Origin: a virus
Length of the DNA: 64,000 bases
IMG/VR virus record: IMGVR_UViG_3300021356_000002
Direction: 5' to 3' (one strand)
The notes below the pieces were generated by a model, which ran no database searches, was not told the origin of the DNA, and saw nothing but the letters and a program-made list of their open reading frames with translations. A program made the translations under genes and the position numbers. This document shows, piece by piece, positions 3,373 to 55,376 of this stretch (its first letter is position 1; each line of letters opens with the position of its first letter).

Positions 3373-3373
3373 A

Positions 3374-3493: not shown

Positions 3494-3496
3494 ACA

Positions 3497-4087: not shown

Positions 4088-4150
4088 AAATCAGTACTCA
4101 CAGTTTGCATGTTGTTACCATTATAAACTAAAATTAATTATAAAAAAAGC

Positions 4151-4179: not shown

Positions 4180-4209
4180 CTATTTCCCAGCGCAGGGCGA
4201 CAGAATATA

Positions 4210-4656: not shown

Positions 4657-4657
4657 G

Positions 4658-6981: not shown

Positions 6982-7018
6982 AATATACACCTACTGTATG
7001 ATAAGATACACGAAGTGT

Positions 7019-7047
7019 ATTATATCACACTAGCTCAAAATAATCAA
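7019..7047 (-). promoter_or_regulatory. sigma70-type promoter for uvsY-uvsW (TTGATT-17-TATAAT, extended -10)
   Basis: aatcaa at 7042-7047 and attata at 7019-7024; TGA immediately before the -10 box. Confidence 0.7.
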
Positions 7048-38300: not shown

Positions 38301-38512
38301 TTGCCAGGCTTTCCTCCCTTAGACACATAAAAGACTCTTGGCGTAGGATCGTCACCAACTTGAACGATGTCAACAACGCCATCTCGATCTTGCTTGATGA
38401 ACATCTTACCATCATGCGTGTTGATGGCAATTTCACCAAGATCAATATCGGCAATGCCCGGGCGCCTTAGCGGGACATCCGTCTTTTTATGGATAATTTT
38501 TGTTATTGCCAT
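35306..38512 (-). CDS. tailspike-like protein: N-terminal anchor, four CxRD helical repeats, pectin-lyase-like beta-helix
   Basis: GEIAINTHDGKMF anchor; VFYVSKGG...AFQTIDSA cap; YLKSGDY..NPI....IVGDNLR, SPYVQNCTS beta-helix. Confidence 0.75.
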   Translation of the reverse strand: MAITKIIHKKTDVPLRRPGIADIDLGEIAINTHDGKMFIKQDRDGVVDIVQVGDDPTPRVFYVSKGGKPGNLGTSLGDAFQTIDSAVSVITDIQEFEFDEATCERDLNLILDGLQFDIAFGTNYNAVTSGLSYQRAGANKVLDEQISATRGAFNEAKGAIFSIPEVKLSTGYDGAVERNNRHWSEVVDIFVNGTQSTENFADSVEYPVPVVLPTTDADDAAVILQNNREYLKAELVQYIAENFPALTYDRTLCSRDTGFIIDAVTLDLMLGTNVNSVVAGSSYYRATVSTQKVIGQQLDGTVGAINELGRLIGELAIDSNSRVSINASIAEINDILANGLENRDTLTFPAAPASSANQQAAATAIQSNKTAIIASTIAFLDSVYPDLTYDTTKCERDVDYILDGLTHDVLYGGNYQSRRSADAYYSNAVNQLGSDSERLPTIAAYDELKNIVNTYVTTSTEQARVDDLIEIINEVLEANNDNVLRDLVYPDFTGISGTTTASYNLILADSADLKAGTIAWSDQNGPATYDRVRCKRDVGFIVDGLTFDVLYGGNFATDIVKRAYYSFGTNQLGDSAGDPEVVATATTYQHLKQIVDELLSNSLSTNLYSGGTYPGAFPGPDTTGNGGQYSTATEAQVTNDLLDNLITIIQDGDLDALDSVQEPSLAARGVSAELRTAIKAINDERPLIIEQSVQRGNATNDIVVYLKSGDYVINNPIQLPEKVAIVGDNLRTTTIRPRSVDSDLFYVKSGCFLKDITFKDHQSGAACVAFNPNVDSARAGPFIIQSPYVQNCTSITTDGVGMKIDGSKAWGLRSMVSDAFTQYNAAGIGTYLLNRGYAQLVSIFTISTGTSILAETGGQCSITNSNSSFGDRGLVASGSSPILYDGILDSDHLKFDDVIQVNEVTNLDSSDWLNVYGSYRKPNYGDAMKFDSENYFYTVLGVDSVAPGVYNLTFEPPLNQDMIRNQRVAFRQRSVITSSSHTFEYVGSGTNTFTAIPQNGGIPDATKEVIFDSETNEGLVVFTSTDQLGDFRIGSELTIRRQAGRIEGETFERSLYAILTPYILALEG

Positions 38513-38541: not shown

Positions 38542-38549
38542 TATTTATT
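38542..38549 (-). promoter_or_regulatory. late promoter variant AATAAATA
   Basis: tatttatt upstream of ORF 38512. Confidence 0.5.
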
Positions 38550-39699
38550 AAAAGTCGCCGCCTTCGAATTCCAACAGTGAAACCTGCCCGTTAGAATCGA
38601 TAGTGAACTGTGCAGAATCGAAAAACGCTACGCCAGGCGTAGTTGAAGTAGCCGTTGGAACTGAAATGGTTAATTTGTCGCTATCGTCTGCGTATGTTAA
38701 AATGATAGCCTGACCTGCACGTAACAATTGGAACACATCGCTGTCAATAAACTCGCTTAGTGTTCTTTCACCAATATTGACTTCACCATTGAACGTTGCA
38801 GTAGAATCGAATGTAGTTGTACCTTGAATCGTTAATGCGCCAGGAATATCAAGGCTTGAATCGATTCTAAGATTATTGACGATAGCAGAGTCGAGTGTAG
38901 TAAGTCCTGATACATCGAGCGTATCATCAAATACACCAGCACCACTTACAGTGATTTTACCAGCAAAGGTAGCACTGTCGTTGAATGCGGCTAAACCTAA
39001 AACACTTAAATTACTATCGACTGTGAGATTATCAACGTTGATACGATCAGCAATAATCTCTACGATGGTTTGTGTGCCAAGCACTTGCAGATCGTTAAAG
39101 ATTGCAGAATCAGATACCGTCAGTCTACCCAGCGTAGCACTGTCTAAATCGATTGAACCGGCTTTTAATTCGTTGACTTTACCTTCGGAGTCTGTTATAA
39201 TAGCACTAGAAGCAGTTAGTACACCATGTGGATGATTCAGTAGATCAGTAAAATACTTACCACCGATTACATCAATGCGTTCTGCTTGTAGTACGCCCGC
39301 AACTGACGAATCGCCGCCAGCACCAATGAACAGACGATCACCGCCTAAGCCGAAGCCATCTGCGGAACTACCAGAGTCTGAAAGATATGAGTATGCTAAT
39401 TCACCTGTTCTTAAAACAAGTGGATCGCCCTGAGTGCCCGAGCGACGAATAAGAATCTGTGCACGATCTGAGTCAGATGGATAAACACGCCCATCGACGA
39501 TCTGCTTTCGAAGTGTTAGTGTGGCTTTCCAGTTACCTGACGCCGAGTCGTATTCGAAGAGTGAACCGTCTACTGCACCCGATGTGACAAGACCTGTGAT
39601 TGCATCAATGTCGGCACTAGCAGAAATAACAGCAGTACGATATGGAGTACCGTACGTTATCTTGCTTACTAATGTCCTGTTTCCTACTTGTACTGACAT
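38548..39699 (-). CDS. virion structural/fibre protein, DS-rich
   Basis: ILIRRSG...LRTGELAYSY...GGDRLFIG...IGGKYFTDLL motif typical of marine phage fibres. Confidence 0.7.
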   Translation of the reverse strand: MSVQVGNRTLVSKITYGTPYRTAVISASADIDAITGLVTSGAVDGSLFEYDSASGNWKATLTLRKQIVDGRVYPSDSDRAQILIRRSGTQGDPLVLRTGELAYSYLSDSGSSADGFGLGGDRLFIGAGGDSSVAGVLQAERIDVIGGKYFTDLLNHPHGVLTASSAIITDSEGKVNELKAGSIDLDSATLGRLTVSDSAIFNDLQVLGTQTIVEIIADRINVDNLTVDSNLSVLGLAAFNDSATFAGKITVSGAGVFDDTLDVSGLTTLDSAIVNNLRIDSSLDIPGALTIQGTTTFDSTATFNGEVNIGERTLSEFIDSDVFQLLRAGQAIILTYADDSDKLTISVPTATSTTPGVAFFDSAQFTIDSNGQVSLLEFEGGDF

Positions 39700-39706: not shown

Positions 39707-40060
39707 TCATGTTACCGAAGGCGTTACTGTTATAAGTCCTTCAAGAACTCTTTCTACGATAGTGTTGGCATCGCTATCTTGATATGAGATTTCCATATCA
39801 TAGACATATTTTCTCTTACTATTTAGCGTATCTGTGACGGTGTTTGTCAAAGATAAGTTAACGATACCTGCGGTCGGAGGAACAGTGACATAAGCGTCGA
39901 ATGAAATTTTGTCAGAACTGTCAACATCATATCGCGTACTCATTTTAGCCGCGGCTGAATAGCCTGACAAATCTTTTGCCGAACCATCGATGTTCGTAAG
40001 ATACACGTCCAGGGAAACGTCTGTTCCCTGATCGATAGTTAATTCTTCATACCTTGCCAT
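39707..40060 (-). CDS. small virion structural protein (Ig-like adaptor)
   Basis: IDQGTD...DLSGY...LSLT...YVYDMEI...RVLEG..TVTPSVT pattern. Confidence 0.7.
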   Translation of the reverse strand: MARYEELTIDQGTDVSLDVYLTNIDGSAKDLSGYSAAAKMSTRYDVDSSDKISFDAYVTVPPTAGIVNLSLTNTVTDTLNSKRKYVYDMEISYQDSDANTIVERVLEGLITVTPSVT

Positions 40061-40106: not shown

Positions 40107-40787
40107 TTAGGCGTGAATGTCTTCAATAATCCAATCTTGCATTCCTACAGCCATCTCTGATCTGTCGAGTACAAATGCAACTGTCATACGTAAACCTGTG
40201 TCCCCGTTCCGTGCTGTATGATATACCAGCTTCTCTTCAGGATCTTCGTATGCACCAAAGTAACCAACTTTACATTGCCAGCCTTTTTTATCAGGTATTG
40301 TTACCATTTCTTTCTTTTCATTGTCCCAGTGCTTCCACCAGCCGTCGCCAGTTTCGCTCCAAGTAAACACACAATTGAATGCTGAAGCATTCGCATTGTT
40401 GTGCCAAGAAATATATCCACCTGGCGGATAAACCGCAAATAGAGCATTACGTTTCAAATTGAACGTAGTTTGTATTTTTTGTAAAAACGCTTCCTGTTTT
40501 AGAGAGACTTCAGGAATTTTTGCTTGCGAAACTTTCTCTTTAGAGAAATGCATTTGTCCGATACCAAAGCCATGCGACACAACAACTTCTGGAAATCCAC
40601 CGTGACCCATACCTTGTGACTTAATAAGTTTAAAATATGCATCACCTGTATAATAGTCGGCGTCTTCTTTATTATGTTTGTCGGCTTTTGTCTTTACGAC
40701 AGCCTCGTAATTTTTATCTCTGGTAAACCAAAGTGCATCGTTCAAAATGTCGATAGCAAAATCGTTTAACGGTATGTCTCTCATCAA
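40107..40787 (-). CDS. putative 2OG-Fe(II) oxygenase / cupin-fold hydroxylase
   Basis: YPPGGYISWHNN...VYH...RMTVAF matches the H...H...RxS/T layout, with Asn in place of the usual Asp/Glu. Confidence 0.6.
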   Translation of the reverse strand: MMRDIPLNDFAIDILNDALWFTRDKNYEAVVKTKADKHNKEDADYYTGDAYFKLIKSQGMGHGGFPEVVVSHGFGIGQMHFSKEKVSQAKIPEVSLKQEAFLQKIQTTFNLKRNALFAVYPPGGYISWHNNANASAFNCVFTWSETGDGWWKHWDNEKKEMVTIPDKKGWQCKVGYFGAYEDPEEKLVYHTARNGDTGLRMTVAFVLDRSEMAVGMQDWIIEDIHA

Positions 40788-41521
40788 AACTCCATGTGCT
40801 TCGCTTCCGAAGCAGAATAATGTCTAATAACAACAGGCTTCTTGTTGTGAGCATATTTATAGCGCGAGAAATAGTTCCATCTGGCATCATCTTCAAAAAT
40901 GCCCACTTTCAAGTCTTGATACTTTGGCTCTTTGTTTACAAGCCACCAAAGAGAAAACTGATCCCATCGTGACAATGATTTAGGATGAGTTTCATAATCT
41001 GCTTCGCCTTTTTCATTTATTGGCCACCATGTACCAGCATACTGTCGTACAGTGAGATCATACCAATCGTCCATAAACTCACGTACCAATGGATTGCGCA
41101 TGTCATACAGACAGACTGCTCCGCATAGTTCGAACTGACCACCAGGCCATTTTAGTTCTGCATAACAGTAAGAGCGTTCTTCGGGCAGACCAGTGTACAT
41201 CACATCATAGCCATTCAGTTCGTCAAAGACATGTTCAATGTCTTCATGCTCGACCTCAGTGTCGGCGTCAATGTAAAATGTAATATCCCACGGTGATTTT
41301 GCCATACCCCAAAGCTTGGCTCGCTTGTGATCGTTGCAGAAAATTATTTCGTCTGCGAGTCTTCGTCCTCGATCATCAAGAAATCTTTCTTCGCAGACCA
41401 AACAAATATTTGCGTCAGGATAGAAATCCCGAATTGAGTCCATTAAATTACATGCAGAAGCATAAAAGAAACTTCGCCGTGACGCAACGATTACGTAACC
41501 TTTAGTTGGCTCCTGCGTCAT
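40784..41521 (-). CDS. putative GT-A fold glycosyltransferase
   Basis: KGYVIVAS, SPWDITFYIDADT (DxD), WDQFSLW, RWN, VIRHYS; GGAG SD before MTQEP. Confidence 0.78.
   Translation of the reverse strand: MTQEPTKGYVIVASRRSFFYASACNLMDSIRDFYPDANICLVCEERFLDDRGRRLADEIIFCNDHKRAKLWGMAKSPWDITFYIDADTEVEHEDIEHVFDELNGYDVMYTGLPEERSYCYAELKWPGGQFELCGAVCLYDMRNPLVREFMDDWYDLTVRQYAGTWWPINEKGEADYETHPKSLSRWDQFSLWWLVNKEPKYQDLKVGIFEDDARWNYFSRYKYAHNKKPVVIRHYSASEAKHMEF
40854..40861 (-). promoter_or_regulatory. possible internal late promoter TATAAATA upstream of the oxygenase
   Basis: Exact match inside the 3' end of the glycosyltransferase gene. Confidence 0.4.
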
Positions 41522-41978
41522 CTTTGTCTCCATAATAGCCCAATTCTTTCGCAATCAAAACTGCACATAGCGCATTCATTTCCACTGCACTTTGCGCTCG
41601 ACGGATTTTGCCACGTAATATACGATCTTCAGAATTTTTAATTTGCTCAATTTCAAAAGCCTGAAGTTTGAGATTAAAAAGTTGCTCTAGTTCAGCAGTC
41701 TTTTTCTTTTGCTCGTGATGTGCGCGTTTTTCTCTGTTCTCGCGCTCTTTTCGCTCTTTGCGTTCAGCGGTATTTTCGTCGATCTTTACGACACCAACTT
41801 TGTCAACCACTTCTTTATAATGAGGGCATTCAGAACCGTCCGGACGAATCTTGCGAAACTCCATTACGTCTTTTTTCTTACCCTTTTGACCTTCAAGCGT
41901 AGTTAGCCTAATACATTTTAGAACTGAGCGATCCTCCGTTTCCCAAAATGCATTATCTAAGTACTCATACTTTGCCAT
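41502..41978 (-). CDS. hypothetical protein (charged, helical; possible fibre assembly factor)
   Basis: GGAG SD; directly downstream of the giant repeat gene; overlaps the glycosyltransferase. Confidence 0.7.
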   Translation of the reverse strand: MAKYEYLDNAFWETEDRSVLKCIRLTTLEGQKGKKKDVMEFRKIRPDGSECPHYKEVVDKVGVVKIDENTAERKERKERENREKRAHHEQKKKTAELEQLFNLKLQAFEIEQIKNSEDRILRGKIRRAQSAVEMNALCAVLIAKELGYYGDKDDAGAN

Positions 41979-41993: not shown

Positions 41994-44900
41994 TTAAGCA
42001 ACACGTACGTATAATGTATATGTCTCAATTGTTACCGGTGTTGATGTTAATTTAGCGTCATCCAAATATGCTTCTGCAATGTTAACTACCAAGTTGTAAT
42101 CAGATTCGTAACTAGAACCTTCGTATGGTGAACCGCCATAAACTTCTAAGTCGCCTGTGCCTTCAAACGCACCTATGTATTCTTCAGCATCATCGCCAGT
42201 AATATAAGTGCTGTAGTCTTGAGTCGATTCGAAATCGGAAGAGTAAGTCTCTACATATGCATCACCAGTATAACTGACTTCAATGTTTCTTGTATAGTCT
42301 AATGATATGTAGTCAACCGAAAACTCTTGGGAATACGATTGTTCAGTGTAGTTTGAAAGATACTCGCCAACATAATCTCCTGGTGCACCTTCATAGTCGG
42401 GCGTATAGTCACCAGTATAAACTGTTTCGTATGTCGGAGTATAGTTACCGATATATGCAGTAACATAAACGTCTTGTGCTATGTAGTCTTCAAGGTAATC
42501 AGACTCATAATCTTGTACATATGTTTCAACAAAATCACCAGTGTAGTCAACTTCATAATTGCCTGTGTACGTTACGATAAAGTCGCCTGTATACTGTCCT
42601 TCAAAATTAGAAAGGTAATCGCCTGAGTAATTCGCTTGATAGTTACCAGTGTAATCAGACAAGTAATCGCCAGTATACTGACCTTCAAATATTGATACAA
42701 AATCGCCTGTATACACAGATTGATAGTTACCGATATATGCTTTTACGTAATCGCCAACATATTGACCTTGGAAAATCTGTAAGAAGTCCCCAGTGTAAAT
42801 TGCGACATAATCGCCAGTATAGTCAGACTGATAATTGCCAGTATACTGACCTTCAAAGTCTTGTACGAAGTCTGCTTCATAAGTTTCTAAGAAGTTGCCA
42901 GTGTAGTTTACGTTAAAGTCGCCGACATACTGTCCTTCAAACGTAGCAAGAAAGTCGCCTGTATAGCCTGATGTATAATCGCCTGTGTACGTAGTTTCAT
43001 AGTTTCCTTCGTATTGGCCCGCAAACCCTTGCAAGAAATCGCCAGAGTAAACCGCAGTAAAATCACCAGTGTAGTCTTGCAAGAAGTTTCCAACATACTG
43101 ACCTTCAAACGTGGCAGTGAAGTTACCTTGATAATTTGATACGTAGTTACCAGAGTATTGTGCCTGAGCATATGTCGAAATATAATCACCAGTATAGATG
43201 TTGGTAAAGTCACCCGTGTAAACTTGAGTAAAGTCACCGCCATATACTTGATCAGCATAATTTCCTATGTAGTCACCAGTATATCGAGAAATATAATCGC
43301 CTTGATAATTACCAGTATATTGAACAGCAAAATTGCCAGTATAGTTCGATATGTAATCACCAGTATACTGTTGCGAAACAAAGTTGGCTGTAAAGTCGCC
43401 AGTGTAATCAGAGATATAATCGCCAGTATATGTTGTGACGAAGTTACCAGTGTAGTTTGCTTGAACGTATACTGTAGTATATGTGCCAGTATATGTTGCT
43501 AAAAAATCACCAACATATTGACCCTGGAAAGTCTGAGTAAAGTTTGACTGATACTGAGTGTTAAAATCAGCATTGTATGTCTGTAAGAAATCACCGACGT
43601 ACTGCCCTTGGAATGTGGCTGTGAAACTAGAAACATAGTTGCTGAGATAATTACCAGTATACTGTGCCGCAAAGTTACCAACATATTGTCCCTGGAACGT
43701 AGCAAGAAAATCACCAACATAGTTTCCAGTATAAGCCGCCGTAAAATCGCCAGCATATTGTGAGATATAGTTACCAGTGTATGGTGCAGTAAAGTTGCCG
43801 ACATATTGACCCTGGAAAGTCTGAGTAAAGTCGCCAGTATATTGTTGAGTAAACGTTGCGACATAACCTGATACGTAGTTACCTTGATACTGACCTTGGA
43901 AAGTCTGTAAGAAGTCGCCAACATACTGACCTTGGAACGTACCCAAGAAGTCTCCCACGTAATTCGATACGTAGTTACCCACATAGTTCGCATCAACAAA
44001 GGTCGCTAAGAAATTGCCTTGATAGGTTCCAGTGTAGTTACCCGTATATGTTCTTAAAAAGTTACCTGAGTAGTTTGCATCAACGAACGTCTGAGTGAAG
44101 TTGCCCGTGTATCGTGACACATAGTCTCCCGAGTAACTTGCAGTAAAGTTACCCGTATAGTTTGCATCAACGAACGTCTGGGTAAACGAACTGGTATACG
44201 ATTGATTAATTGTTCTTGTATACTGACCAGTATAGTTACCAGTATAGTTCGCATCAACGAATGTTATGTTGACAGCAGAAACGTAACTACCAACGTACGA
44301 CTGTTGAATCGAGCCAACATAGGTTTGCTGAATCGAGCCAACATATGTTCCTGTATAAGTGCCGCCGCCACCAGTATATCCGCCAGTGTATGTTAATCCA
44401 GTTAAAAGGAATCTTCTTCGAACTTCATAATATCGATAGGTCCCGCTGAAGCTGCCAGTGCCGAATCGGAAATTACCTCTATCATATTCATAGCCTCCTC
44501 GAACAACCGGAGTTGTCAATCCAGGTTCGGTCAGTGCGTAAATGGTGCTAGCCCAACGAAGCTGGTTATTACTTTCTATTCCGCTATTTCGAGGCTGAAA
44601 AGTCCGCCAGTAATATTGAGGAGAACTAAAAGTGAAGAAATACGCTGAATAGGCACCTGGACCAACGTAGCCGCCTTGATAAGAGGTTGCGGCACTTGCA
44701 TAACCACCAAGATAGTTTCCGACATATGTGCCAGTGTAGTTACCGACATATGTGCCTGTGTAAGTCCCTTGATAATTTGCAGAAAACGAACCCGTATACT
44801 GCCCTTGGAACGTAGCGGCAAATGAACCTGTATAACTTTGGTTGATTGTTCTTGTATACTGACCAGTATAGTTACCAACATACTGTCCCTGGAATGTGGC

Positions 44901-47900
44901 TAAGAAGTCGCCCAAATAAGCCTGAATAAAGTTGCCATCATAGTTGGCTAAGAAATCACCAACGTACTGACCCTGGAATGTTCCTAAGAAGTCACCAGTA
45001 TATCGAGCAACAAAGCTACCAGCGTATCCAGATACGTAATCGCCTTGATACTGACCTTGGAACGTAGCAGTAAAGTCGCCTGAGTAAGTTGCTAAAAAGT
45101 TACCAGTATAGTTCGCGTCAACGAACGTCTGTAAGAAGTTGCCTGTATAGTTCGCTTGTGCGTAATTCGAAATGTAATCACCAGCATATGTTACGTTACG
45201 ACCTCCAGTATATTGAGCCGTAAAGTTGCCCACATAGTTCGCATCAACGAACGTTGTAACAAAGTCACCGGTATAACGGGCAAGAAAATCGCCAGAATAT
45301 TGTGCGAGGAAGTTACCAGTGTAAGCCGCACGAATATAATCCGAAGCATAATTACCAGTGTAGTTTGCATCAACGAATGTAGTTAGAAAATCGCCTTGAT
45401 AGTTTGCGGTAAAGTCGCCAGTGTAAGTAGCGGCAAAGTTACCAGTATAGTTGGCTTGCACATAAAGCGAAACGTAGTTACCAGTATATGCCTGCAAGAA
45501 ATTACTCTCGTATTGCGAGATGTAATCGCCTGTATAGTTAGCAGAAATAAATGTGTTTACAAAGTTACCAGTGTACGGCTCTTCGTAAACAGTAACGTAC
45601 TGCCCTTGGAATGTCTGAACAAAATCACCGACATAATTCGAAGTGTAGTTACCAGCGTACGTCGAAAGATAGTTACCAGTGTACTGACCTTCAAACGCTT
45701 GAGTGAAGTTGCCTGAATAAGTAACTAAGAAGTCACCAGTATAGGTAGCTGTGACGTAATTTGATACGTAGTTACCGTCATAGTTGACTTGATAATTGCC
45801 CTGATACTGACCCTCGAAGCCTTGAATGAAATTACCAGTATAATTCTGCGTAAAGTTACCAGTGTATTGAGACTGATAGTTACCTTGATACTGTCCTTCG
45901 AACGTTGCAATAAAGTCGCCAGAATAACTTACAATGAAGTCACCGGTGTATTGTGCTTGAGCGTAGTTTTGTGTAAAGTCGCCAGAGTATTGAGACTGAT
46001 AATTTCCTGTATAGTCAGAAATATAGTTACCGGTGTAAGTCTGTTGCTCATAGGTACCAATATAATCGCCAGAATAGTCTGACTGATAGTTACCCTGATA
46101 TTGAGACTGATAGTTACCAGTGTACTGCGCTTGAGCATAAGTCTCAGTGAAATTGCCAGTATAGATGTCAGTAAAGTCACCGGTATACTGTTCTATGAAA
46201 TTACCACCGTAGACTAGCTGAATATAAGTTTCTAAGAAGTCGCCTGTATAGGGCACTTGATATTCAGAAGCGTATTGTGACTGGTAATTACCAGTATAAT
46301 TTTCTTGTGCGTAAGTGACTGTGTAAGACGTTGAATATGCCTGAAGAAAATCACCCGTATAGGGCTGAGTAAAGTTACCAGCATACTCTGTCTGAATATA
46401 GTTGACAGTAAAATTGCCTTCGTAATTTTCTGTGTAGTCACCAGTGTACACATCGATGTAATTGCCAGTATAGACATCATCGATATAATTCTCTGTAAAG
46501 TTACCGCTGTAGTCGATAACATAATCACCGACATATAGCTCAGTGAAGTTACCTGTATATTCTTCTTCAACATAAGCGGCAACGTAGTTACCAGTGTAGA
46601 TAACTGGCGCATCACCATACAATTCAGCATAGTCTGCGGCATACACTTCAAGCGTATCATCCGCTTCGTAGATAGTTGTATACTGCTCTTCGACTGTAAG
46701 ACCAGAATAGTTAGGAATATATTCTCCTTCGTAACCGCTCTCATAGGATTGTGCGTACGTAAGAAGATAATCACCTATGTAACTTTGTGCGTAGTCGCCG
46801 CTAAACGTACCAATGTACGTAGCCTCATAATCACCAGTATAGGAAGATGAATACGTAGCACCGTATTCGCCAACATAGTTCGATTCATATGTGTCTACGT
46901 AATTTCCGATATAGTCAGGAACATAAGACCCTTGATACTGTGAAGTGTAATTGACATCATACGAATCAACTGAGACATAAGCAGTCTCAGATTCGTATGT
47001 CAAGTTGGTATCAATCGCAGAACCACGTGCTTCCCAAGTTCCCGGAGCAGTCGGTGGACCATCAGCAGAAGATCGAAGTTGATATTTACCAATGCCAGTG
47101 TCTTGAATGACTTGCTTCATTCGCTCGCCGAAGGTCATCTCAACTTCAGCATCACCAAGATGCTTGATTCCTTCAAACTTGTTAGTCACTGCTTGACGTA
47201 AAGGCGAAATGGGCTTAACTACTGCTGGAACAGTTGAGTCTGTCTTAACCCAGATAGAATATGTTACAAGAGATCCATCGCCTCGAGTGTCTTCGAATAC
47301 GTCTGCGATAAACTCTGACCACTGTGCGCCTGGAGATACTGTAGCAAGTCGATACTGACCAGGATAATCGTTCGAAAATATTTTTAAAAGAAGTCGTTGT
47401 ACTACAACGTCGAGTTCTGCATCGCTCATTTCTTTCAAGCCAGCAGGCGTTGCAGTTCTATCCCAGTAAAGTGGATTCTTTTTCAGATCACTGTCGTTGT
47501 CAATTATTGCTACAGCCGTATCGTTCTGATATAACTCATACAGAGTGGCAGAAGTAGTTGGCTTCAACTGTGGCTCTACACGCACAGAGGTTAGTACCTC
47601 AGCATCGCTCGCACCAGCAACACTATTTTGCAGATCAGTAGTAGAACCGTTGATAGTAAAGTTGATTACGCCATCGTCAGTGATGGGAACAGTCCACGTG
47701 ACTTCATAAGAGCCAGTGAGATTGCCATCAGGATAATTTTCCCACGAAACAGAACGACCGTTTGAAGTTGTGTGAGTCGCAGTAGGCGTTGTCGATGTTG
47801 TAATCGTGCCTATTGCCGCAGAACCCGAAATACCCAACTGATATTCGATTTCTTCAAATCCAACACCAGTATTTGTTGCGGTGCCTTGGAGCGTTAGTTC

Positions 47901-48230
47901 AATGGTGTCGCCAACATAGACAACACTAGGCAATGGCGTATAAGAACCAATGGTAACTGTATGCGTTGATCCTGCTGGATCAGATGCGTGAGTAATCGTA
48001 AATGTTCGACTAGTCGTAGTGCCAGGAATAGGACCTATACCAGATGTATAAAAAGTGTCTTCAAACGTGCCAACAAGTTCGGCTGCCGCGTTCGTAGAGA
48101 GCGCAGACAAATCACTTGTTGTCATTTTACTTAAATGAACACCCGCTCGATAAGCCAGATAATCTTCTTCAGAAGTCAGTAGCTCTTTGAACGCACCTTC
48201 ATTTAAGTGTTTGAGAGGACGATAAGACAT
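41994..48230 (-). CDS. giant (2078 aa) mirror-registered YxG-repeat fibre protein
   Basis: ~420-aa N-terminal base, two ~770-aa tetrapeptide arms, central ~85-aa non-repetitive domain; own late promoter. Confidence 0.85.
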   Translation of the reverse strand: MSYRPLKHLNEGAFKELLTSEEDYLAYRAGVHLSKMTTSDLSALSTNAAAELVGTFEDTFYTSGIGPIPGTTTSRTFTITHASDPAGSTHTVTIGSYTPLPSVVYVGDTIELTLQGTATNTGVGFEEIEYQLGISGSAAIGTITTSTTPTATHTTSNGRSVSWENYPDGNLTGSYEVTWTVPITDDGVINFTINGSTTDLQNSVAGASDAEVLTSVRVEPQLKPTTSATLYELYQNDTAVAIIDNDSDLKKNPLYWDRTATPAGLKEMSDAELDVVVQRLLLKIFSNDYPGQYRLATVSPGAQWSEFIADVFEDTRGDGSLVTYSIWVKTDSTVPAVVKPISPLRQAVTNKFEGIKHLGDAEVEMTFGERMKQVIQDTGIGKYQLRSSADGPPTAPGTWEARGSAIDTNLTYESETAYVSVDSYDVNYTSQYQGSYVPDYIGNYVDTYESNYVGEYGATYSSSYTGDYEATYIGTFSGDYAQSYIGDYLLTYAQSYESGYEGEYIPNYSGLTVEEQYTTIYEADDTLEVYAADYAELYGDAPVIYTGNYVAAYVEEEYTGNFTELYVGDYVIDYSGNFTENYIDDVYTGNYIDVYTGDYTENYEGNFTVNYIQTEYAGNFTQPYTGDFLQAYSTSYTVTYAQENYTGNYQSQYASEYQVPYTGDFLETYIQLVYGGNFIEQYTGDFTDIYTGNFTETYAQAQYTGNYQSQYQGNYQSDYSGDYIGTYEQQTYTGNYISDYTGNYQSQYSGDFTQNYAQAQYTGDFIVSYSGDFIATFEGQYQGNYQSQYTGNFTQNYTGNFIQGFEGQYQGNYQVNYDGNYVSNYVTATYTGDFLVTYSGNFTQAFEGQYTGNYLSTYAGNYTSNYVGDFVQTFQGQYVTVYEEPYTGNFVNTFISANYTGDYISQYESNFLQAYTGNYVSLYVQANYTGNFAATYTGDFTANYQGDFLTTFVDANYTGNYASDYIRAAYTGNFLAQYSGDFLARYTGDFVTTFVDANYVGNFTAQYTGGRNVTYAGDYISNYAQANYTGNFLQTFVDANYTGNFLATYSGDFTATFQGQYQGDYVSGYAGSFVARYTGDFLGTFQGQYVGDFLANYDGNFIQAYLGDFLATFQGQYVGNYTGQYTRTINQSYTGSFAATFQGQYTGSFSANYQGTYTGTYVGNYTGTYVGNYLGGYASAATSYQGGYVGPGAYSAYFFTFSSPQYYWRTFQPRNSGIESNNQLRWASTIYALTEPGLTTPVVRGGYEYDRGNFRFGTGSFSGTYRYYEVRRRFLLTGLTYTGGYTGGGGTYTGTYVGSIQQTYVGSIQQSYVGSYVSAVNITFVDANYTGNYTGQYTRTINQSYTSSFTQTFVDANYTGNFTASYSGDYVSRYTGNFTQTFVDANYSGNFLRTYTGNYTGTYQGNFLATFVDANYVGNYVSNYVGDFLGTFQGQYVGDFLQTFQGQYQGNYVSGYVATFTQQYTGDFTQTFQGQYVGNFTAPYTGNYISQYAGDFTAAYTGNYVGDFLATFQGQYVGNFAAQYTGNYLSNYVSSFTATFQGQYVGDFLQTYNADFNTQYQSNFTQTFQGQYVGDFLATYTGTYTTVYVQANYTGNFVTTYTGDYISDYTGDFTANFVSQQYTGDYISNYTGNFAVQYTGNYQGDYISRYTGDYIGNYADQVYGGDFTQVYTGDFTNIYTGDYISTYAQAQYSGNYVSNYQGNFTATFEGQYVGNFLQDYTGDFTAVYSGDFLQGFAGQYEGNYETTYTGDYTSGYTGDFLATFEGQYVGDFNVNYTGNFLETYEADFVQDFEGQYTGNYQSDYTGDYVAIYTGDFLQIFQGQYVGDYVKAYIGNYQSVYTGDFVSIFEGQYTGDYLSDYTGNYQANYSGDYLSNFEGQYTGDFIVTYTGNYEVDYTGDFVETYVQDYESDYLEDYIAQDVYVTAYIGNYTPTYETVYTGDYTPDYEGAPGDYVGEYLSNYTEQSYSQEFSVDYISLDYTRNIEVSYTGDAYVETYSSDFESTQDYSTYITGDDAEEYIGAFEGTGDLEVYGGSPYEGSSYESDYNLVVNIAEAYLDDAKLTSTPVTIETYTLYVRVA
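42060..46980 (-). repeat. coding tetrapeptide repeat region (Y/F-x-G-N/D alternating with Y/F-x-x-x), interrupted at ~44400-44660
   Basis: Degenerate 12-nt periodicity (for example gttaccagtgta, gtcgccagtata) throughout. Confidence 0.95.
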
Positions 48231-48262: not shown

Positions 48263-48496
48263 TTATTTATAAGATTTGTGGATCAAGTGATTCAGCATAC
48301 TTTTTATTTCATCCAGATCCTTTTCGATAGTCTCTACCTTTTGTTCAAGTGATTGTTTTTGGGCTTTTTCAAGTTTACGGAGGCGTTTGCGCTCTCTGGC
48401 TTGTTCGATCTCCTCAGCATTGGTGTTAATCAATGCGTTGGTTTTCATGTCACGAACTAAGCCAGAGTGCCCCTTGACAGGTACATATCTGCTCAT
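48263..48496 (-). CDS. small conserved coiled-coil protein
   Basis: VKGHSGLVRD..TNALIN motif, typically found after the VrlC-like gene in marine T4-like phages. Confidence 0.75.
   Translation of the reverse strand: MSRYVPVKGHSGLVRDMKTNALINTNAEEIEQARERKRLRKLEKAQKQSLEQKVETIEKDLDEIKSMLNHLIHKSYK
48264..48271 (-). promoter_or_regulatory. T4 late promoter TATAAATA for the giant-fibre unit
   Basis: Exact match 33 nt upstream of the 48230 ATG. Confidence 0.8.
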
Positions 48497-51400
48497 TATA
48501 CTGCCAGATATCTGTATCTCAGATTCTTAATTGATGGTGCTCTGTCTCCACCAATAAACACGAACTTAAACTGTGCTTGCTGAAAAGGCTTCAGATCACC
48601 ACCGAGACCACCTGGTAGCCACTGAGCATCACGATAAACTTGAGAATTGTCAAACGGAATATTGTCAACAGGTTCTTGATATATCCAGTACTTATCGTTG
48701 ATGTTTTCATCACCGCCAGCAGTTCTGAAATACATTTGGATATCAGCGTCATTAGGAATGTTTACTAATCCTCTGACTTCTATACCCACAGCGTCCAAAT
48801 CGAGGAATACAGGAGTTGTAATATGTTTCGAACCCGTTGTTCCTGAAGTAGGACTTGTTTCGTCTACAGGCAGAATTGCAGGCGTGACAGATGGATCGTC
48901 AAGCTTGAATCCAGCGAGCGTAATAGAAGCCCTCTGCATGTCAACAATTGGAGAAACATAGTCATTGGCAGTCTTCATGTCAAGCTTTACGTAAACTGAA
49001 GCAACACCAGCACCCAGATTTGCTTCTTCTGCCGCTAAGTTGTAGATCGCTTTTGGTGTATCAAAATCAATGTTTTGCATCAAAGTGATTCTAGAATAAT
49101 CAGCGTCTTGAGTCCATCTCTGAGCCTTAGTGATGCGTGTACTCGACAACATCTTGCCTTCTGTCCACTTAGCACCAGCATCGATTGATGTAAAGTTTGG
49201 TACTACAGTTTCAACCGTAGGCATTGCTGTGTTGAAAATTGCATTTCGTCTTGATAGTGTCCAGTGACTAGAACCAAGTCCAGAAGACGTTTCTACTGGA
49301 TGGGCAGCGTCATATGTGAACGAATAACCGTTAACGTCAGCAGAGTCAACCGTGTGTGCGCCTTCAATATAACTTATAATATCAGAACTGCTAGTAAAGA
49401 CACCAGAACCATCAATTCTATCTGCAAATCCACCAGGACCGATTCCAGAAGTTGCAACACTATCGAGACGACAGAGATCGCCAGGCTCTAGACCATGATT
49501 AGCATGATGAATGTAAATCTTTCTAGAACCAGCAAACGTCTGAATGTTGGGTTTATTCGCTTCTTTTGTAGGATCAACTTCGCCAATCAACTTCGGAGGT
49601 AACGGCACATTCTTAAGAATTAGACTACCGCCACCAAGATCGAACTTCGCACGATTTAGTTTGTACATCAAATCTTGATCTTTTGCTTCGATCCAAGACA
49701 AGCCGTTTTGAGGCAAGTAAAGAGAGCCTGGAGCATTTTGCGTAGATGTAATACGTGACGTAGATCCAAACACAGGCAGTAACGTCTTCGAACTAAACAG
49801 TTCATATTCGGTTGACTGAGAAGTAACTACAATCGCATATGATGTCCAAGGCTTCAGATATACTGGCTCATCAAATGTAAACGTTGTTGGTCGTGCTTGA
49901 ATAACCGAAAGCACTGGATCTGTACCAACTACTTGTACATCACTTGCTTTCAAAACAACTTGCGAATCAGGAACAATCTCATTGTGCGCAGGCTTGCCAT
50001 TGATTACAGGACGTAAGTGGATTTGTACTGGTAGATTACCAGCGTCTTTTGCTCTGAAGTAGAGTTGCAAACTTGTCAGTGTAACACCGAACTGATTGTC
50101 AACAAAGAAGGTCTGAGCCATAGGATTCTGTGGCGCAGTCAACACATTCGTTTCTGTTCCTGCAAACTGATTCTGATCTACATCGATGTAATCAGAAAGA
50201 ATCTGCGACATCTGACCATTCGCGTCAAGTCCTGTTAGAGCGGCACCAGATAGCGCGGCAGTGGCAGGTCCATACAAGCCAGAGAATCTAGGATCCACGA
50301 GATTTACAGCAGAAGACCGTATCTGATCCAGTGTATCTCTAAGTTCTTTTGGACTGTAAATCTGTGCCCAGTGAACCCAATACGACAACGGCCACCAGTA
50401 ACCCCAAGGTCTTGAAGTGATCATATTGTGCCAGTGATGCCAAATCGCACCAACTGCGGCATAATATGCAAAGCACTTACTATCAGCGTTGCCCCAATCA
50501 TTACGTGACGTGTCAAGCAATTTAAATTCGCGAATACCTGTTTTAAAGCAAATGTTCGGAGAGTTTGCTTGTGTTTCTCGATCGGTCGCTCTAGTATTCC
50601 AACGCCTCGCAGTGTTCGGAATCCAAAGAGAACCAATGATTTCTCCGTTAGCGTCAGAAATTAGATCAGTAGAGCCATCGGGATGTTCAGTCTGCCAGTA
50701 CGGGTCTTGTGGATCTGTTTGATCAGTTCGATCAGACCATCGTAAAAATGCTGGCTCTTCACGCACAAAACTAGCCATGTTGTCGCCGTCAAAGAAAGCG
50801 TAGTGTTTGGTGTTTGGCTTAAGACCCTTTGCGTGAAAGAAAATCTTTCTGGAACGCAACCAAGGAATCAACGCAACGTCGATGATACGATTACCAACAG
50901 CTTGTCGTAGTGTTTCAGATGGAACAACGCGAGAAACGAATCGACCTCCAAATCGCGTAAACGAACTTCTGCCAGAGAAGTAACGTTCTCTTAACTCGAC
51001 CAATCTACGGCGACGAATTCCAATAATTGACGTTTCTCTTTCGTAGTATGGATTCCATTGTTCAAGGTCTTCAGCACTTCTGCCTGCCCAGTTCCATACC
51101 CAGTTGTTCCACAGATATGCTTGTCTACGGTCGAGACGACCTTGACCAGGCACTGCTCGATCAGCACGAGCTGGATCTTTCCATTCATCACTCGTGGGTG
51201 AAAGCTTTAGTGTTCCCACGTTATCGACCAAGCCAAATGGATTGATTTTAACTGAAGTAGACGCAAGGTCTTGAACCGCCCATGCTTCTGAGTCATGAGT
51301 CAGATAAACATTGTCACCTTTCTTTACAATGCCACTAGACTGTGTGTTATCAACAACCAAACGAATGTTGTTTTCGTCGAACATAGGACGAATCAGTTTG

Positions 51401-53964
51401 CTTTCAGGATCCAAAGATGCTGAGTAGTCTGGATTGTTGGTATCTGCTCCCGTTTGATCGTTATTATCATCGCAAAGATTACCACATTCCGTTCTTGCAT
51501 TGCCAGCACTGTCGAGCGCGGCAAACAGTTTTTGTTCAAGCTCGAGGAGACTGAGTTCTGTGTATTCTTGCAGATCATCTATCTTCGCTTCGAGTTTGGC
51601 AATATCTGCCATCGTATAACGTCGATGCTCGATTGGTGTGATTCGACAATCATCAAAGCCATGCATGTTGCCGTTGACCAAAACCTTTGCAAGTTCTAAC
51701 GTATTGTCTGGCGTTGGCTTGTACTGCGGATTGCCTGCAGGCTGACCCATCAGTACTTGAACTTCACCCTCTTGCGTCAGAAGAATTTTGTCTGCTCGTG
51801 GCAGCCAGTAACTGACTGTGGCTGTTACACTTGATCCGTTTCGTGGCAAATCAAACGTACTAAAGGGTGATCCTTCGTCAGGTCTAAAATCAAGATAGTT
51901 CTTAGGATTAATTACGGTACCGTCTTGTTGAATCTGATCTAAAGTACCACCAAAATTATTGCCTAAGACAAGAGATTCTGGATACGAAGTTGCATCAAAG
52001 AAGTCGCCGCCAGCACCACGCGCATAATAGTCATAATAAACATTTAATGTTGTGGGAACACTATCATAATCGCTATTTAAGATTAATCTACTTTTAGCAT
52101 AATAGTTGTCACGTACGCCACAATCTAATCTAACGTCACCAGTCATATCACGACCGTTAATGTTATTGACGTTTACTTCGCGAACTTCGTTGACATCAAC
52201 GTAAGGAAACTCGTAGTAATACTGCCTAGCCGCTGAATCGTATGCTACAGTCAGCTTGCCGTTGTTAACTGTGGTTAACGTTTTGGATTTTCTCGTAGCA
52301 GTTTTCTGAACATAGCAGAGAACTTCGTAAGTGCTGGATGGAGTTAGACCCGAAATTGTAACGTCACGTCCACTGTTAGTGGGCGTTCCGACTGTATGTG
52401 CTTCAGCAGAGGCTGAACTTGTTGATACGACCCAAAGAGTAGTGTCTGTATATGATGAGCCAGTCGGAAGTGTAGCAAGAGTAATTTCTCCGCTACCGTT
52501 TGCTACGAGTCCGCTTTGATGTTGCTGTATCGTAATTGTAATATCAGAGAACGACTCGGGTCGAGGACGTGACAGAGGGAACAACAGATTATTATTATCA
52601 ACTGTTCCGTTAAGAGTCGCACCTTGAGTGCCTTGCGTTATATTGAAAACATCAGACGAGCCAGAGCCGATACTTTTAATGCTTCTTAGTGAGCTGGCTG
52701 AATCGACGCGAACATCATACACATAGACACGATAATTTGCACCATCTTCTTCGACAGCACGAATTCTTGCAGTGCCTAACGAAGATCCACCAGCCTGAAA
52801 ATCGTCATATAGATTGACTTGTGCATGATCCAGATCAGGTAGACCACGATTACTGTCTGCTAAGAAGTAATTACCATAACTGATCGGAATGACATCATTA
52901 TCGACAGTCTCAGTTACTAGTGGCTTAGGAACACTCAAACGAGTAGCAGTTGCTCTTTCGACACGATAACCATTGACATATGCCATACCTGGTGATACAA
53001 TCACATCGAAATTAGAATCCCTTGCACTGAAAGTTCTTTCGTCTACACTTACTCTGAATGGATCGACGATGTAGTTACCAGACTCTTCGAACGTTCTTTG
53101 TGCAATTAGATCGTTGATCGTGTTGTATGCATCAATCTCTTTGACTTGCTCAACGATCTTTGAATTTTCGATATTAGCCACAAACACGAATGTGTCATTA
53201 GCAGTTACTTTACTCAATTCGGTAAGTTGCAGATTGATTCTAAGACGATCAGCACCAGGTGAAGCCGTGTTAACAATACCATTTGCGTTGTCGAACAAAG
53301 AAGTGTCATCATTGACAGTGACAACTTCTTGAACAACCTTAAATCCTACAGTCGTAGTCGCAGAGGCTGTATATGGAGACAGAATAATAGACTGTTCAGT
53401 TGTGTGAACAAAGTGACCTAAAACAAAGAAGTCTCCTTCGCCCAAAGTAAATCTAACGCCCTTACCAGTCGCATTAGGAGTTTCAGTAGTAATCTGATAA
53501 CCACCACCAGACTGATCAAACAAAACTACTCCATCATCAAACTTCTCATTTGCACCCGCGCCAGAATTTACATACTGGACATAAAGAGTATCAAGAACAA
53601 AACCTTCATCAACGTTTCTAGGCTTTAAGTCGATTACTTTCGCTTCAACACCTGTGTTGGTGTCTTTGAATATGGTACCAATAGGAATATCAGTAAACGC
53701 ACCGCCAGCATTTACAGCCGAGACTTTGATATAGTCAATACTTGCATCAACAGCCATGCCTCCAGTATTGACCGCGGCACCTTCTTTGAAAACGTTTTTA
53801 CCAAATCTAGCAAGTTCTTGAAAGATGATTGTCTGTAGTTGCGTCAACTCTCGCGCTTGTAGAGCGCGTCCGTTGTTAAAGAGGACTTGATGAAAATTGT
53901 TATCCTCATTAAAATCATCTGAATAAATGCCAGATAGCGTATTGGATGTGAATTCTGTTGCCAT
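48496..53964 (-). CDS. large baseplate-associated structural protein (VrlC/DUF4815-like)
   Basis: YSDDF...VLFNNGRALQARELTQLQT, PGADRL, RTFEESGNY, RRYTMADIAKLE, NPMAQTF. Confidence 0.85.
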   Translation of the reverse strand: MATEFTSNTLSGIYSDDFNEDNNFHQVLFNNGRALQARELTQLQTIIFQELARFGKNVFKEGAAVNTGGMAVDASIDYIKVSAVNAGGAFTDIPIGTIFKDTNTGVEAKVIDLKPRNVDEGFVLDTLYVQYVNSGAGANEKFDDGVVLFDQSGGGYQITTETPNATGKGVRFTLGEGDFFVLGHFVHTTEQSIILSPYTASATTTVGFKVVQEVVTVNDDTSLFDNANGIVNTASPGADRLRINLQLTELSKVTANDTFVFVANIENSKIVEQVKEIDAYNTINDLIAQRTFEESGNYIVDPFRVSVDERTFSARDSNFDVIVSPGMAYVNGYRVERATATRLSVPKPLVTETVDNDVIPISYGNYFLADSNRGLPDLDHAQVNLYDDFQAGGSSLGTARIRAVEEDGANYRVYVYDVRVDSASSLRSIKSIGSGSSDVFNITQGTQGATLNGTVDNNNLLFPLSRPRPESFSDITITIQQHQSGLVANGSGEITLATLPTGSSYTDTTLWVVSTSSASAEAHTVGTPTNSGRDVTISGLTPSSTYEVLCYVQKTATRKSKTLTTVNNGKLTVAYDSAARQYYYEFPYVDVNEVREVNVNNINGRDMTGDVRLDCGVRDNYYAKSRLILNSDYDSVPTTLNVYYDYYARGAGGDFFDATSYPESLVLGNNFGGTLDQIQQDGTVINPKNYLDFRPDEGSPFSTFDLPRNGSSVTATVSYWLPRADKILLTQEGEVQVLMGQPAGNPQYKPTPDNTLELAKVLVNGNMHGFDDCRITPIEHRRYTMADIAKLEAKIDDLQEYTELSLLELEQKLFAALDSAGNARTECGNLCDDNNDQTGADTNNPDYSASLDPESKLIRPMFDENNIRLVVDNTQSSGIVKKGDNVYLTHDSEAWAVQDLASTSVKINPFGLVDNVGTLKLSPTSDEWKDPARADRAVPGQGRLDRRQAYLWNNWVWNWAGRSAEDLEQWNPYYERETSIIGIRRRRLVELRERYFSGRSSFTRFGGRFVSRVVPSETLRQAVGNRIIDVALIPWLRSRKIFFHAKGLKPNTKHYAFFDGDNMASFVREEPAFLRWSDRTDQTDPQDPYWQTEHPDGSTDLISDANGEIIGSLWIPNTARRWNTRATDRETQANSPNICFKTGIREFKLLDTSRNDWGNADSKCFAYYAAVGAIWHHWHNMITSRPWGYWWPLSYWVHWAQIYSPKELRDTLDQIRSSAVNLVDPRFSGLYGPATAALSGAALTGLDANGQMSQILSDYIDVDQNQFAGTETNVLTAPQNPMAQTFFVDNQFGVTLTSLQLYFRAKDAGNLPVQIHLRPVINGKPAHNEIVPDSQVVLKASDVQVVGTDPVLSVIQARPTTFTFDEPVYLKPWTSYAIVVTSQSTEYELFSSKTLLPVFGSTSRITSTQNAPGSLYLPQNGLSWIEAKDQDLMYKLNRAKFDLGGGSLILKNVPLPPKLIGEVDPTKEANKPNIQTFAGSRKIYIHHANHGLEPGDLCRLDSVATSGIGPGGFADRIDGSGVFTSSSDIISYIEGAHTVDSADVNGYSFTYDAAHPVETSSGLGSSHWTLSRRNAIFNTAMPTVETVVPNFTSIDAGAKWTEGKMLSSTRITKAQRWTQDADYSRITLMQNIDFDTPKAIYNLAAEEANLGAGVASVYVKLDMKTANDYVSPIVDMQRASITLAGFKLDDPSVTPAILPVDETSPTSGTTGSKHITTPVFLDLDAVGIEVRGLVNIPNDADIQMYFRTAGGDENINDKYWIYQEPVDNIPFDNSQVYRDAQWLPGGLGGDLKPFQQAQFKFVFIGGDRAPSIKNLRYRYLAV

Positions 53965-55368: not shown

Positions 55369-55376
55369 TATTTATA
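55369..55376 (-). promoter_or_regulatory. T4 late promoter TATAAATA
   Basis: Exact match at the gp6/gp8 junction. Confidence 0.75.

What the first reader, a model, noticed from the sequence alone, without database searches (positions are those of the whole stretch)
41994..48230. A protein palindrome: a 2078-aa fibre whose two arms encode the register of a giant antiparallel hairpin
Seen in sequence: both arms are strings of 4-residue units starting with Y/F. They are punctuated by either an F-x-G-Q unit or a 5-residue unit (FVDAN, YAQAN, YVQAN, YAQAQ, YEQQT, YIQLV etc.). Reading outward from the central domain (~44400-44660), a 7-mer faces a 7-mer (YASAATS vs YTGGGGT). The number of units between punctuation marks is then identical on both arms: 8,6,6,6,4,2,6,9,6,6,4,6,9,6,4,6,6,6,6,6,6 (manual count). 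In all 21 pairs an FxGQ on one arm faces a 5-mer on the other, and the polarity swaps in blocks (four FQGQ vs four FVDAN, then the reverse). The two 9-unit intervals each contain an extra 5-mer facing YTGN. The arms are about equal in length (~770-780 aa), acidic near the base and more neutral/Arg-containing near the tip. Inference: the chain runs out and folds back as one very long beta-hairpin with a beta-bulge code that fixes its register, displaying the central domain at the tip. It may be oligomeric, like a hugely extended version of the T4 gp37 needle. Fully extended this would be roughly 250 nm. I know of no described fibre with this complementary code.
Basis: partly seen in the sequence, partly recalled or inferred. 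Interest (0 to 1): 0.95.

Follow-up and report, generated by a model that had tools for sequence, protein, structure and literature searches.

The report
Giant fold-back tyrosine-repeat phage fibre
A marine T4-like phage encodes a 2078-residue fibre protein whose two 770-residue tyrosine-repeat arms match unit for unit when one is read backwards, so the chain very probably runs out to a small tip domain and back along itself, a design absent from described fibre families; its exact 3-D form and length are still open.

Summary
Both arms of the 2078-aa ORF (41994-48230, minus strand) are strings of 4-residue Y/F units. When the N arm is reversed, all 21 punctuation marks coincide with those of the C arm, and each time FxGQ faces a 5-mer. 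None of 20,000 interval shuffles exceeded 18 of 21, and the direct orientation gives at most 11.

The same principle holds in relatives that use other codes. In phage C48C1 an unbroken 1038-aa outgoing arm equals six return segments totalling 1024 aa, and Arg-rich blocks face Gly-rich blocks (mirror r = -0.85, direct +0.17). Across 77 family members, repeat classes agree best at zero shift from the two conserved base motifs.

I conclude that the arms pair antiparallel and the chain folds back, with the tip domain distal (about 0.75).

Low-confidence AlphaFold2 models give short strands broken at every G-N/D, solenoid-like, and one relative has Pro in each octad. The length may be tens of nm.

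The family has no Pfam or PHROG model, no solved relative by sequence search, and I found no paper on it. This scan has already noted the family in other genomes.

The parts
41994..48230 (-). Whole fibre gene, 2078 aa
   Evidence: ORF list and translation. Homologues in phage C48C1 and in hundreds of metagenomic proteins.
46998..48230 (-). N-terminal globular domain, res 1-411; conserved family domain and presumed attachment end
   Evidence: Aligns across P0002-P0019 at 35-46% identity. No Pfam, PHROG or NCBIfam hit.
44682..46997 (-). Outgoing (N) arm, res 412-1183, 4-residue Y/F units with FxGQ or 5-mer marks
   Evidence: Tokenisation and mirror alignment.
44379..44681 (-). Tip domain at the turn, res 1184-1284; 10 Arg and 23 aromatic residues in 101
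   Evidence: It is the only non-periodic stretch between the arms. Weak similarity to the tip domains of C48C1 and P0004/P0006 (pairwise E 0.002-0.006). AF2 pLDDT is below 50 here.
42141..44378 (-). Return (C) arm, res 1285-2030, same unit grammar with complementary marks
41994..42140 (-). C-terminal tail, res 2031-2078, ending in the family-wide ETYTLYVR-type motif; presumed to dock at the base beside the N domain
   Evidence: The motif is present at the end of most family members. Docking is an inference.
41502..41978 (-). 158-aa highly charged protein, first gene of a conserved trio after the fibre gene (candidate assembly factor)
   Evidence: 36-39% identical to the gene in the same position in C48C1, L004 and L003. 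No family hit.
40784..41554 (-). 256-aa protein, second gene of the conserved trio
   Evidence: 61%, 40% and 54% identical to its syntenic counterparts. No Pfam, NCBIfam or PDB-sequence hit.
40107..40787 (-). 226-aa protein, third gene of the conserved trio
   Evidence: 40% identical to its syntenic counterparts in C48C1 and L004. No family hit.

Best explanation
This is a baseplate-region fibre of a T4-like marine phage, built as a fold-back. A conserved N-terminal domain sits at the base. A 772-residue arm of 4-residue aromatic units runs outward. A roughly 100-residue Arg- and aromatic-rich domain forms the distal tip. A 746-residue arm then returns antiparallel to the first, and a short conserved C-terminal motif ends next to the N domain. 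The two arms are held in one register by size complementarity on the aromatic face: a Gly-type unit lies opposite a non-Gly unit. They are also held by paired marks every 7 units, where a 4-residue FxGQ on one arm faces a 5-residue unit on the other, a one-residue mismatch. Each period reads the same in the forward direction on both arms, which is a local dyad. What is shown: the mirror code itself, its statistics, and its recurrence with other codes in relatives. What is inferred: physical pairing, a distal tip that binds the receptor, and oligomerisation. Geometry is undecided. I lean roughly 55:45 towards short strands with a turn at each G-N/D, giving a compact beta-helix-like rod in which outgoing and return layers alternate and whose length is tens of nm. 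The alternative is straight strands along the axis.
For: 21 of 21 marks coincide and are complementary in mirror register. Shuffles give at most 18 in 20,000 trials and the direct orientation at most 11. Gly and non-Gly units are complementary in 111 of 142 pairs. The acidity gradient is mirrored in both arms. Phage C48C1 homologue: outgoing arm 1038 aa against 1024 aa of return segments; Arg density per 40 aa is anticorrelated in mirror alignment (r = -0.85, p = 7e-8) and r = +0.17 in direct orientation. P0140: unit lengths 8,4,8,8,8,8,8 | tip | 8,8,8,8,8,4,8, with the 8-mer runs 85-124 and 88-127 residues from the two base motifs. P0018: 12-mer blocks lie 217-328 and 220-343 residues from the two bases. 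P0076: motif order is reversed on the two arms. 77 family members: class agreement 0.366 at zero shift, 0.26-0.32 at shifts, 0.267 with the arm of another protein, 0.292 in direct orientation; Wilcoxon p = 7e-8. Arm lengths correlate, r = 0.60, n = 82. There is no DNA inverted repeat and the DNA repeats are diverged, so the pattern is kept at protein level. For the lean towards turns: both AF2 models break strands at every G-N/D, the fold matches are solenoid-like, and P0140 has Pro in each octad.
Against: No structure or confident model shows the arms in contact. The AF2 single-sequence model of res 1041-1440 appears to fold each arm on its own (mean pLDDT 57). Generic local-alignment tests of mirror against direct order found no family-wide preference. 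Outward-facing positions show no covariation between the arms. Family members are related to each other, so the p-values overstate independence. The segment borders in C48C1 were set by eye from the sequence. Irregular intervals (4, 2, 9 units) fit poorly with a solenoid of fixed coil length, which weakens my geometric lean.
Confidence: 0.75

Rival explanations
1. The fibre is one very long two-stranded beta-hairpin, or a trimer of hairpins forming a six-stranded needle like a stretched T4 gp37 needle. The strands run along the axis, the 5-mer/FxGQ pairs act as classic beta-bulges, and the length is about 250 nm.
For: The mirror register holds at the level of single 4-residue units, including the irregular intervals. 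That is trivially satisfied by straight paired strands. Every second residue on one face alternates aromatic and small, as needed for a narrow core. Gly packed on an aromatic side chain of another strand is documented in the gp37 needle (G921/F970, PMC6957217). Irregular 4-, 2- and 9-unit intervals do not disturb this geometry.
Against: G-N/D occurs every 8 residues, and relative P0140 has G-N-P-D every 8 residues. These are turn formers. Both AF2 models break the strands there and the fold matches are solenoid-like. A rise of 3.3 A per residue would give 250 nm here and about 340 nm in C48C1, several times what trimeric phage fibres usually give per residue (own knowledge: T4 long fibre about 145 nm for about 2900 residues per chain set).
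Confidence: 0.3
2. The arms pair antiparallel but between chains. Either extended chains lie head to tail, with the central domains in the middle and attachment ends at both ends, or the arms are swapped between subunits of an oligomer.
For: The sequence evidence requires only that the N arm at distance x from the centre meets a C arm at distance x. It does not say that both belong to one chain.
Against: The central element is only about 25-30 residues in P0140 and P0076, which looks like a turn. An intramolecular partner is always nearest. A rod with two attachment ends is unusual for a baseplate fibre. Nothing here tests this directly.
Confidence: 0.12
3. Each arm is an independent parallel beta-solenoid with local contacts only. 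In that case the mirror pattern has no structural meaning, or reflects only side-by-side packing at coil level.
For: The AF2 model of res 1041-1440 gives three strands per 28/29-residue period. Its arms align separately to beta-helices: polygalacturonase 1k5c_A with Z 6.6, rmsd 4.8 A over 202 residues, and bactofilin 6ria_A with Z 6.1, rmsd 3.2 A over 70 residues. The regular period of 6 units plus a mark fits one triangular coil.
Against: This does not explain 21 of 21 coincident and complementary marks with mirrored irregular intervals. It does not explain equal arm lengths with complementary blocks in C48C1, or the zero-shift peak across the family. Coils of 3, 5, 8 and 10 units cannot stack in a fixed solenoid. 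The model is low confidence (mean pLDDT 57, pTM 0.40) and Z near 6 is within the usual background of that search (note).
Confidence: 0.08

Closest known systems
Needle and collar of the T4 long-tail-fibre tip, gp37 (D10 = res 811-881 plus 1010-1026, D11 needle between them; PMC6957217)
   Same: It is a phage fibre whose chain goes out to a receptor-binding tip and returns, so that the N- and C-terminal segments share one proximal domain. Gly packs against an aromatic residue of another strand (G921/F970).
   Different: There is no sequence relation. The gp37 needle is about 130 residues, against 1500 here. It is held by seven His-bound iron ions, while these arms contain no His at all. It has no tetrapeptide repeat and no paired-mark code. 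Trimeric state is unknown here.
T4 gp5 C-terminal triple-stranded beta-helix (repeat VxGxxxxx; PMC4576200)
   Same: It has an octapeptide with a hydrophobic residue at position 1 and Gly at position 3, with Asn/Asp next to the Gly. It is a phage tail protein and a long regular rod.
   Different: In gp5 three parallel chains intertwine and the chain does not return. Here two arms of one chain are related in mirror order. A second aromatic residue sits at position 5. An extra 4- or 5-residue unit every 24 residues does not fit a threefold prism with 8-residue sides.
Streptococcal antigen I/II adhesins (A-region alpha-helix paired with P-region polyproline-II helix as a stalk carrying the V domain; as described in PMC6586375)
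   Same: It is a fold-back stalk. Two different but complementary repeat arms of one chain pair and display a variable binding domain at the far end.
   Different: That stalk is alpha-helix plus PPII, not beta. It is a bacterial cell-wall adhesin with no sequence relation. Here the arms share one grammar and differ only in marks and in Gly placement.
Antiparallel coiled-coil arms of SMC/Rad50-type proteins (own knowledge)
   Same: Two long arms of one chain fold back at a hinge, and arm lengths are kept matched in evolution.
   Different: Those arms are alpha-helical heptads in ATPases that organise DNA. This is a virion fibre with beta-type repeats.

Membership tests
Uncharacterised marine-myovirus fold-back fibre family (C48C1 WJE88074-like; no Pfam or PHROG model) | Conserved N-terminal domain ending in a G-x-W-x-A-x-G-x-A type motif | tested here: met
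   35-46% identity to P0002-P0019 over the N domain. The motif was found by pattern at res 405.
Uncharacterised marine-myovirus fold-back fibre family (C48C1 WJE88074-like; no Pfam or PHROG model) | Two arms of Y/F-spaced 4/8/12-residue units around a central non-periodic element, with the ETYTLYVR-type motif at the C terminus | tested here: met
   The motif starts at res 2071.
Uncharacterised marine-myovirus fold-back fibre family (C48C1 WJE88074-like; no Pfam or PHROG model) | Followed by the conserved trio of small genes (about 150, 250 and 230 aa) | tested here: met
T4 gp37-type needle | Sequence homology to gp37 or to solved needle/collar domains | tested here: not met
   No PDB sequence hit below E = 0.6 and no Pfam hit.
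T4 gp37-type needle | HxH motifs that bind iron along the needle | tested here: not met
   Zero His in 1518 arm residues.
T4 gp37-type needle | Out-and-back chain topology with both ends in one proximal domain | tested here: inconclusive
   Inferred from the mirror code and from conserved motifs at both termini. There is no structure.
Triple-stranded beta-helix (gp5C type) | Octapeptide repeat: hydrophobic-x-G-x5 | tested here: met
   The [YF]-x-G-[ND] unit alternates with a non-Gly unit. N or D follows the Gly in 117 of 166 G-units. The gp5 motif is taken from PMC4576200.
Triple-stranded beta-helix (gp5C type) | Three parallel intertwined chains | not testable with these tools
The mirror relation of the arms argues against a simple parallel arrangement.
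Single-chain parallel beta-helix / beta-solenoid | Fold similarity to solved beta-helices | tested here: inconclusive
   Foldseek found nothing at E <= 0.001. VIA-align best Z is 6.6, with rmsd 4.8 A over 202 residues, on a model of pLDDT 57.
Single-chain parallel beta-helix / beta-solenoid | Constant coil length along the rod | tested here: not met
   Periods of 3, 5, 7, 9 and 10 units occur (8 if the adjacent 5- and 3-unit periods form one coil). Relatives show aperiodic mixes of 4-, 8- and 12-mers.

The most novel reading that the evidence does not exclude
The arms form a truly extended, register-coded beta-needle of 200 nm or more, as one hairpin or as a trimer of hairpins. A peptide pairing code (large opposite small, 4-mer opposite 5-mer) sets a unique register over about 770 residue pairs. 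Phages would then tune fibre length by matched insertions in both arms. That would be a new structural principle for beta-proteins and a natural template for length-programmable protein rods.
Probability: 0.3. Interest if true: 0.95.

Novelty: new variant of a known kind. Interest (0 to 1): 0.8.

Why it matters
Fold-back fibres are known only at small scale (the gp37 needle) or in other secondary structures (the antigen I/II stalk, coiled-coil arms). Here a large and completely unannotated family of marine T4-like phage fibres writes the pairing register of two arms of 770 to more than 1000 residues into the sequence, and different lineages use different complementary codes. The search found 317 clusters at 50% identity. 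If confirmed, three things follow. It explains how these phages build and resize very long host-recognition fibres. It gives a rule for annotating hundreds of 'hypothetical' giant phage proteins. It offers a design principle for self-registering beta rods. The position of the tip domain also shows where host specificity most likely lies in phages of abundant ocean bacteria.

Tried and rejected
- AF2 of res 1041-1440: mean pLDDT 57, tip unresolved.
- AF2 of relative P0140: mean pLDDT 36, unusable. No coordinates or contacts were available to me, so arm-to-arm contact in the models could not be read.
- Foldseek against the PDB: no match at E <= 0.001.
- No Pfam, PHROG or NCBIfam family for the fibre.
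- The PDB sequence search gave only chance-level hits.
- The ESM Atlas gave nothing usable.
- Three generic Smith-Waterman tests of mirror against direct token order showed no family-wide preference. I judge them unsuitable. The arms share one forward grammar, so direct local similarity is expected, and here the 5-mers face 4-residue marks.
- Within-protein tests: partner periods are no more identical than non-partners (diagonal 0.46, off-diagonal 0.45, p = 0.29). Outward-facing positions do not covary.
- The close group P0003-P0007 gave no clean compensated-indel case, because the tip module and its flanks were exchanged as a block.
- The guess by other first readers that the downstream genes are a GT8-type glycosyltransferase and an oxygenase was not recovered by Pfam, NCBIfam or PDB sequence searches.
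- Chance, a DNA palindrome and a non-gene were rejected.
- Literature searches found no description of this family.
Full report
**What is there.** The window is a block of minus-strand structural genes of a T4-like myovirus. A gp6-like wedge protein lies at 55372-57156 and another wedge subunit at 53968-55344. A 1822-aa DUF4815 protein lies at 48496-53964, and tail-fibre-like proteins at 35306-38512 and 38548-39699. The closest deposited genome by the gp6-like protein is Phage C48C1 (Kyanoviridae; 40% identity), followed by Methylophilales, Pelagibacter and Synechococcus myophages. The ORF 41994-48230 (-) encodes 2078 aa.

**The observation.** Of the spacings between successive Y/F residues, 317 are exactly 4 and 34 are 5. 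Cutting at Y/F gives 182 units in the N-arm stretch (res 412-1183) and 182 in the stretch from res 1280 to the C terminus. I reversed the N arm and anchored both arms on the 7-mers at res 1177 and 1285.
- All 21 marks of the regular part coincide in unit register, and in every case an FxGQ unit faces a 5-residue unit.
- Two extra N-arm 5-mers split the two 9-unit intervals, and each faces a plain unit.
- Other mirror offsets give at most 16 coincidences and the direct orientation at most 11. In 20,000 shuffles of interval order the best score was 18.

I saw three further regularities.
- A unit with Gly at position 3 faces a unit without it in 111 of 142 plain pairs.
- All three polarity swaps fall on a 4-unit interval.
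- Each period, read forward, has the same grammar on both arms, which is what a local dyad between antiparallel partners produces.

Acidity rises from tip to base in parallel on both arms. The arms contain no His, Cys, Met or Trp and only one Lys. At DNA level there are no inverted repeats, and the direct repeats are only 60-80% identical. The pattern is therefore old and is kept at protein level.

**Relatives.** The protein has no Pfam, PHROG or NCBIfam family and no solved relative by sequence. A search of 1.8 billion cluster representatives with res 1041-1440 found 317 proteins at E <= 1e-3. A word-indexed search found 20 long homologues that share the N domain and the C-terminal motif. Among 50,697 deposited phage genomes only C48C1 has a true homologue, of 3347 aa.

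The C48C1 protein is the best independent test.
- Its outgoing arm (res 267-1304, 1038 aa) is unbroken.
- The rest of the chain consists of six repeat segments totalling 1024 aa, separated by five globular insertions.
- In mirror alignment the Arg count per 40 aa on one arm is anticorrelated with that on the other (r = -0.85, p = 7e-8). In direct orientation r = +0.17.
- Arg-type 8-mers on one arm face Gly-rich 4-mers on the other, and the polarity swaps in blocks. This is the same principle as in the window, written in a different code.
- The segment borders were set by eye from the sequence, which is a caveat.

Other relatives behave the same way.
- In the 540-aa relative P0140 the unit lengths read 8,4,8,8,8,8,8, then a tip of about 25 aa, then 8,8,8,8,8,4,8. 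The 8-mer runs lie 85-124 and 88-127 residues from the two conserved base motifs.
- In P0018 (2503 aa) the 12-mer blocks lie 217-328 and 220-343 residues from the two bases.
- In P0076 the order of several distinct motifs is reversed on the two arms.

Two family-wide measures agree.
- Across 77 members with both base motifs, spacing classes at equal distance from the two bases agree best at zero shift (0.366). The figure is 0.26-0.32 at shifts of 12-96 residues, 0.267 with the arm of another protein (maximum 0.297 in 200 trials) and 0.292 in direct orientation (Wilcoxon p = 7e-8).
- Arm lengths correlate (r = 0.60, n = 82).
- Family members are related, so these p-values are optimistic.

Three generic local-alignment tests showed no preference for mirror order. 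I regard them as unsuitable, because the shared forward grammar makes direct local similarity expected.

**Structure.** AF2 without an alignment on res 1041-1440 gave mean pLDDT 57 (arms 65-80, tip below 50). The strands were 5-10 residues long and broken at every G-N/D. Foldseek found nothing significant. VIA-align matched the C-arm part to parallel beta-helices (best 1k5c_A, Z 6.6, rmsd 4.8 A, 202 residues) and the N-arm part to bactofilin (Z 6.1, rmsd 3.2 A, 70 residues). These scores are within that search's usual background. No prediction therefore shows the arms in contact, and what there is looks solenoid-like rather than like a straight hairpin.

Three points favour a turn every 8 residues.
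- G-N/D recurs every 8 residues.
- P0140 has G-N-P-D in every octad.
- The octad resembles the VxGxxxxx repeat of the T4 gp5 beta-helix (PMC4576200).

Against a fixed solenoid stand the periods of 3, 5, 7, 9 and 10 units (8 if the adjacent 5- and 3-unit periods form one coil). Straight paired strands tolerate these, and stacked coils do not. I leave the geometry open and treat 250 nm as an upper limit. A wound or prism-like form would give roughly 25-90 nm.

**Context.** The three genes after the fibre (158, 256 and 226 aa) recur in the same order after the homologous fibre in C48C1, in a 150-kb metagenomic contig and, for the first two genes, in a Tara Oceans contig, at 36-61% identity. None has a Pfam, NCBIfam or PDB-sequence match. 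They are candidate assembly or maturation factors. This is an inference from linkage only.

**Comparison with what is known.** The closest in how it works is the T4 gp37 tip, whose D10 domain is made of res 811-881 plus 1010-1026 with the needle between them, and where G921 packs on F970 of another chain (PMC6957217). That needle is a tenth of the size and iron-bound, and it has no sequence relation to this protein. The antigen I/II stalk is a fold-back of two complementary repeat arms carrying a variable domain, but it is alpha-helix plus PPII (PMC6586375). I found no paper describing this family.

Earlier notes of this scan describe the same family in at least five other genomes, with the same fold-back reading. 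One of them adds a beta-helix reading. They are unchecked AI notes and I did not count them as evidence.

**Verdict.**
- Antiparallel, register-coded arm pairing: about 0.85.
- Intramolecular fold-back with a distal tip: about 0.75.
- A straight 250-nm hairpin: about 0.3.
- It is a new variant of a known kind (the fold-back fibre), in an undescribed and widespread family.

Noticed in passing
window 40107-41978 (-): Three small genes (158, 256, 226 aa) directly after the fibre gene are conserved in the same order after the homologous fibre in phage C48C1, in a 150-kb metagenomic contig (L004) and partly in a Tara contig (L003). None has any Pfam, NCBIfam, PHROG or PDB-sequence match. The 117-aa gene at 39707-40060 also has a counterpart in L004 (45% identity).
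   Followed up: partly
window 44172-44246 and 44808-44882: A 75-nt direct repeat (81% identical, 636 nt apart) brackets the tip domain. It encodes the same peptide in both arms at mirror positions (first period, 83% protein identity). This looks like recent gene conversion between the arms, or a recombination handle for tip exchange.
   Followed up: partly
L001 (phage C48C1), protein res about 2008-2159: The C48C1 fibre contains a tandem duplication of about 76 aa that spans the end of a globular insertion and the first 30 aa of the next repeat segment. It could be real or an assembly artefact. It changes the return-arm total from 1024 to about 1054 aa.
   Followed up: no
L002 (Synechococcus phage S-RIM2), CDS 1423-7161: An unrelated 1912-aa 'structural protein' carries two runs of a [VL]-T-G-[ND] tetrapeptide repeat separated by a short linker. 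This is the same unit as here with an aliphatic residue in place of Tyr, and is possibly a small hairpin of the same type.
   Followed up: no
window 22921-26109 (-): A 1062-aa protein in the structural block carries a subtilase (Peptidase_S8) domain (E = 9e-27).
   Followed up: no
window 44379-44681 (-): The tip domain has 10 Arg and 23 aromatic residues in 101, while the arms are nearly free of basic residues. It is weakly similar to the tip domains of C48C1 and P0004/P0006, and these are exchanged as modules among close relatives.
   Followed up: partly
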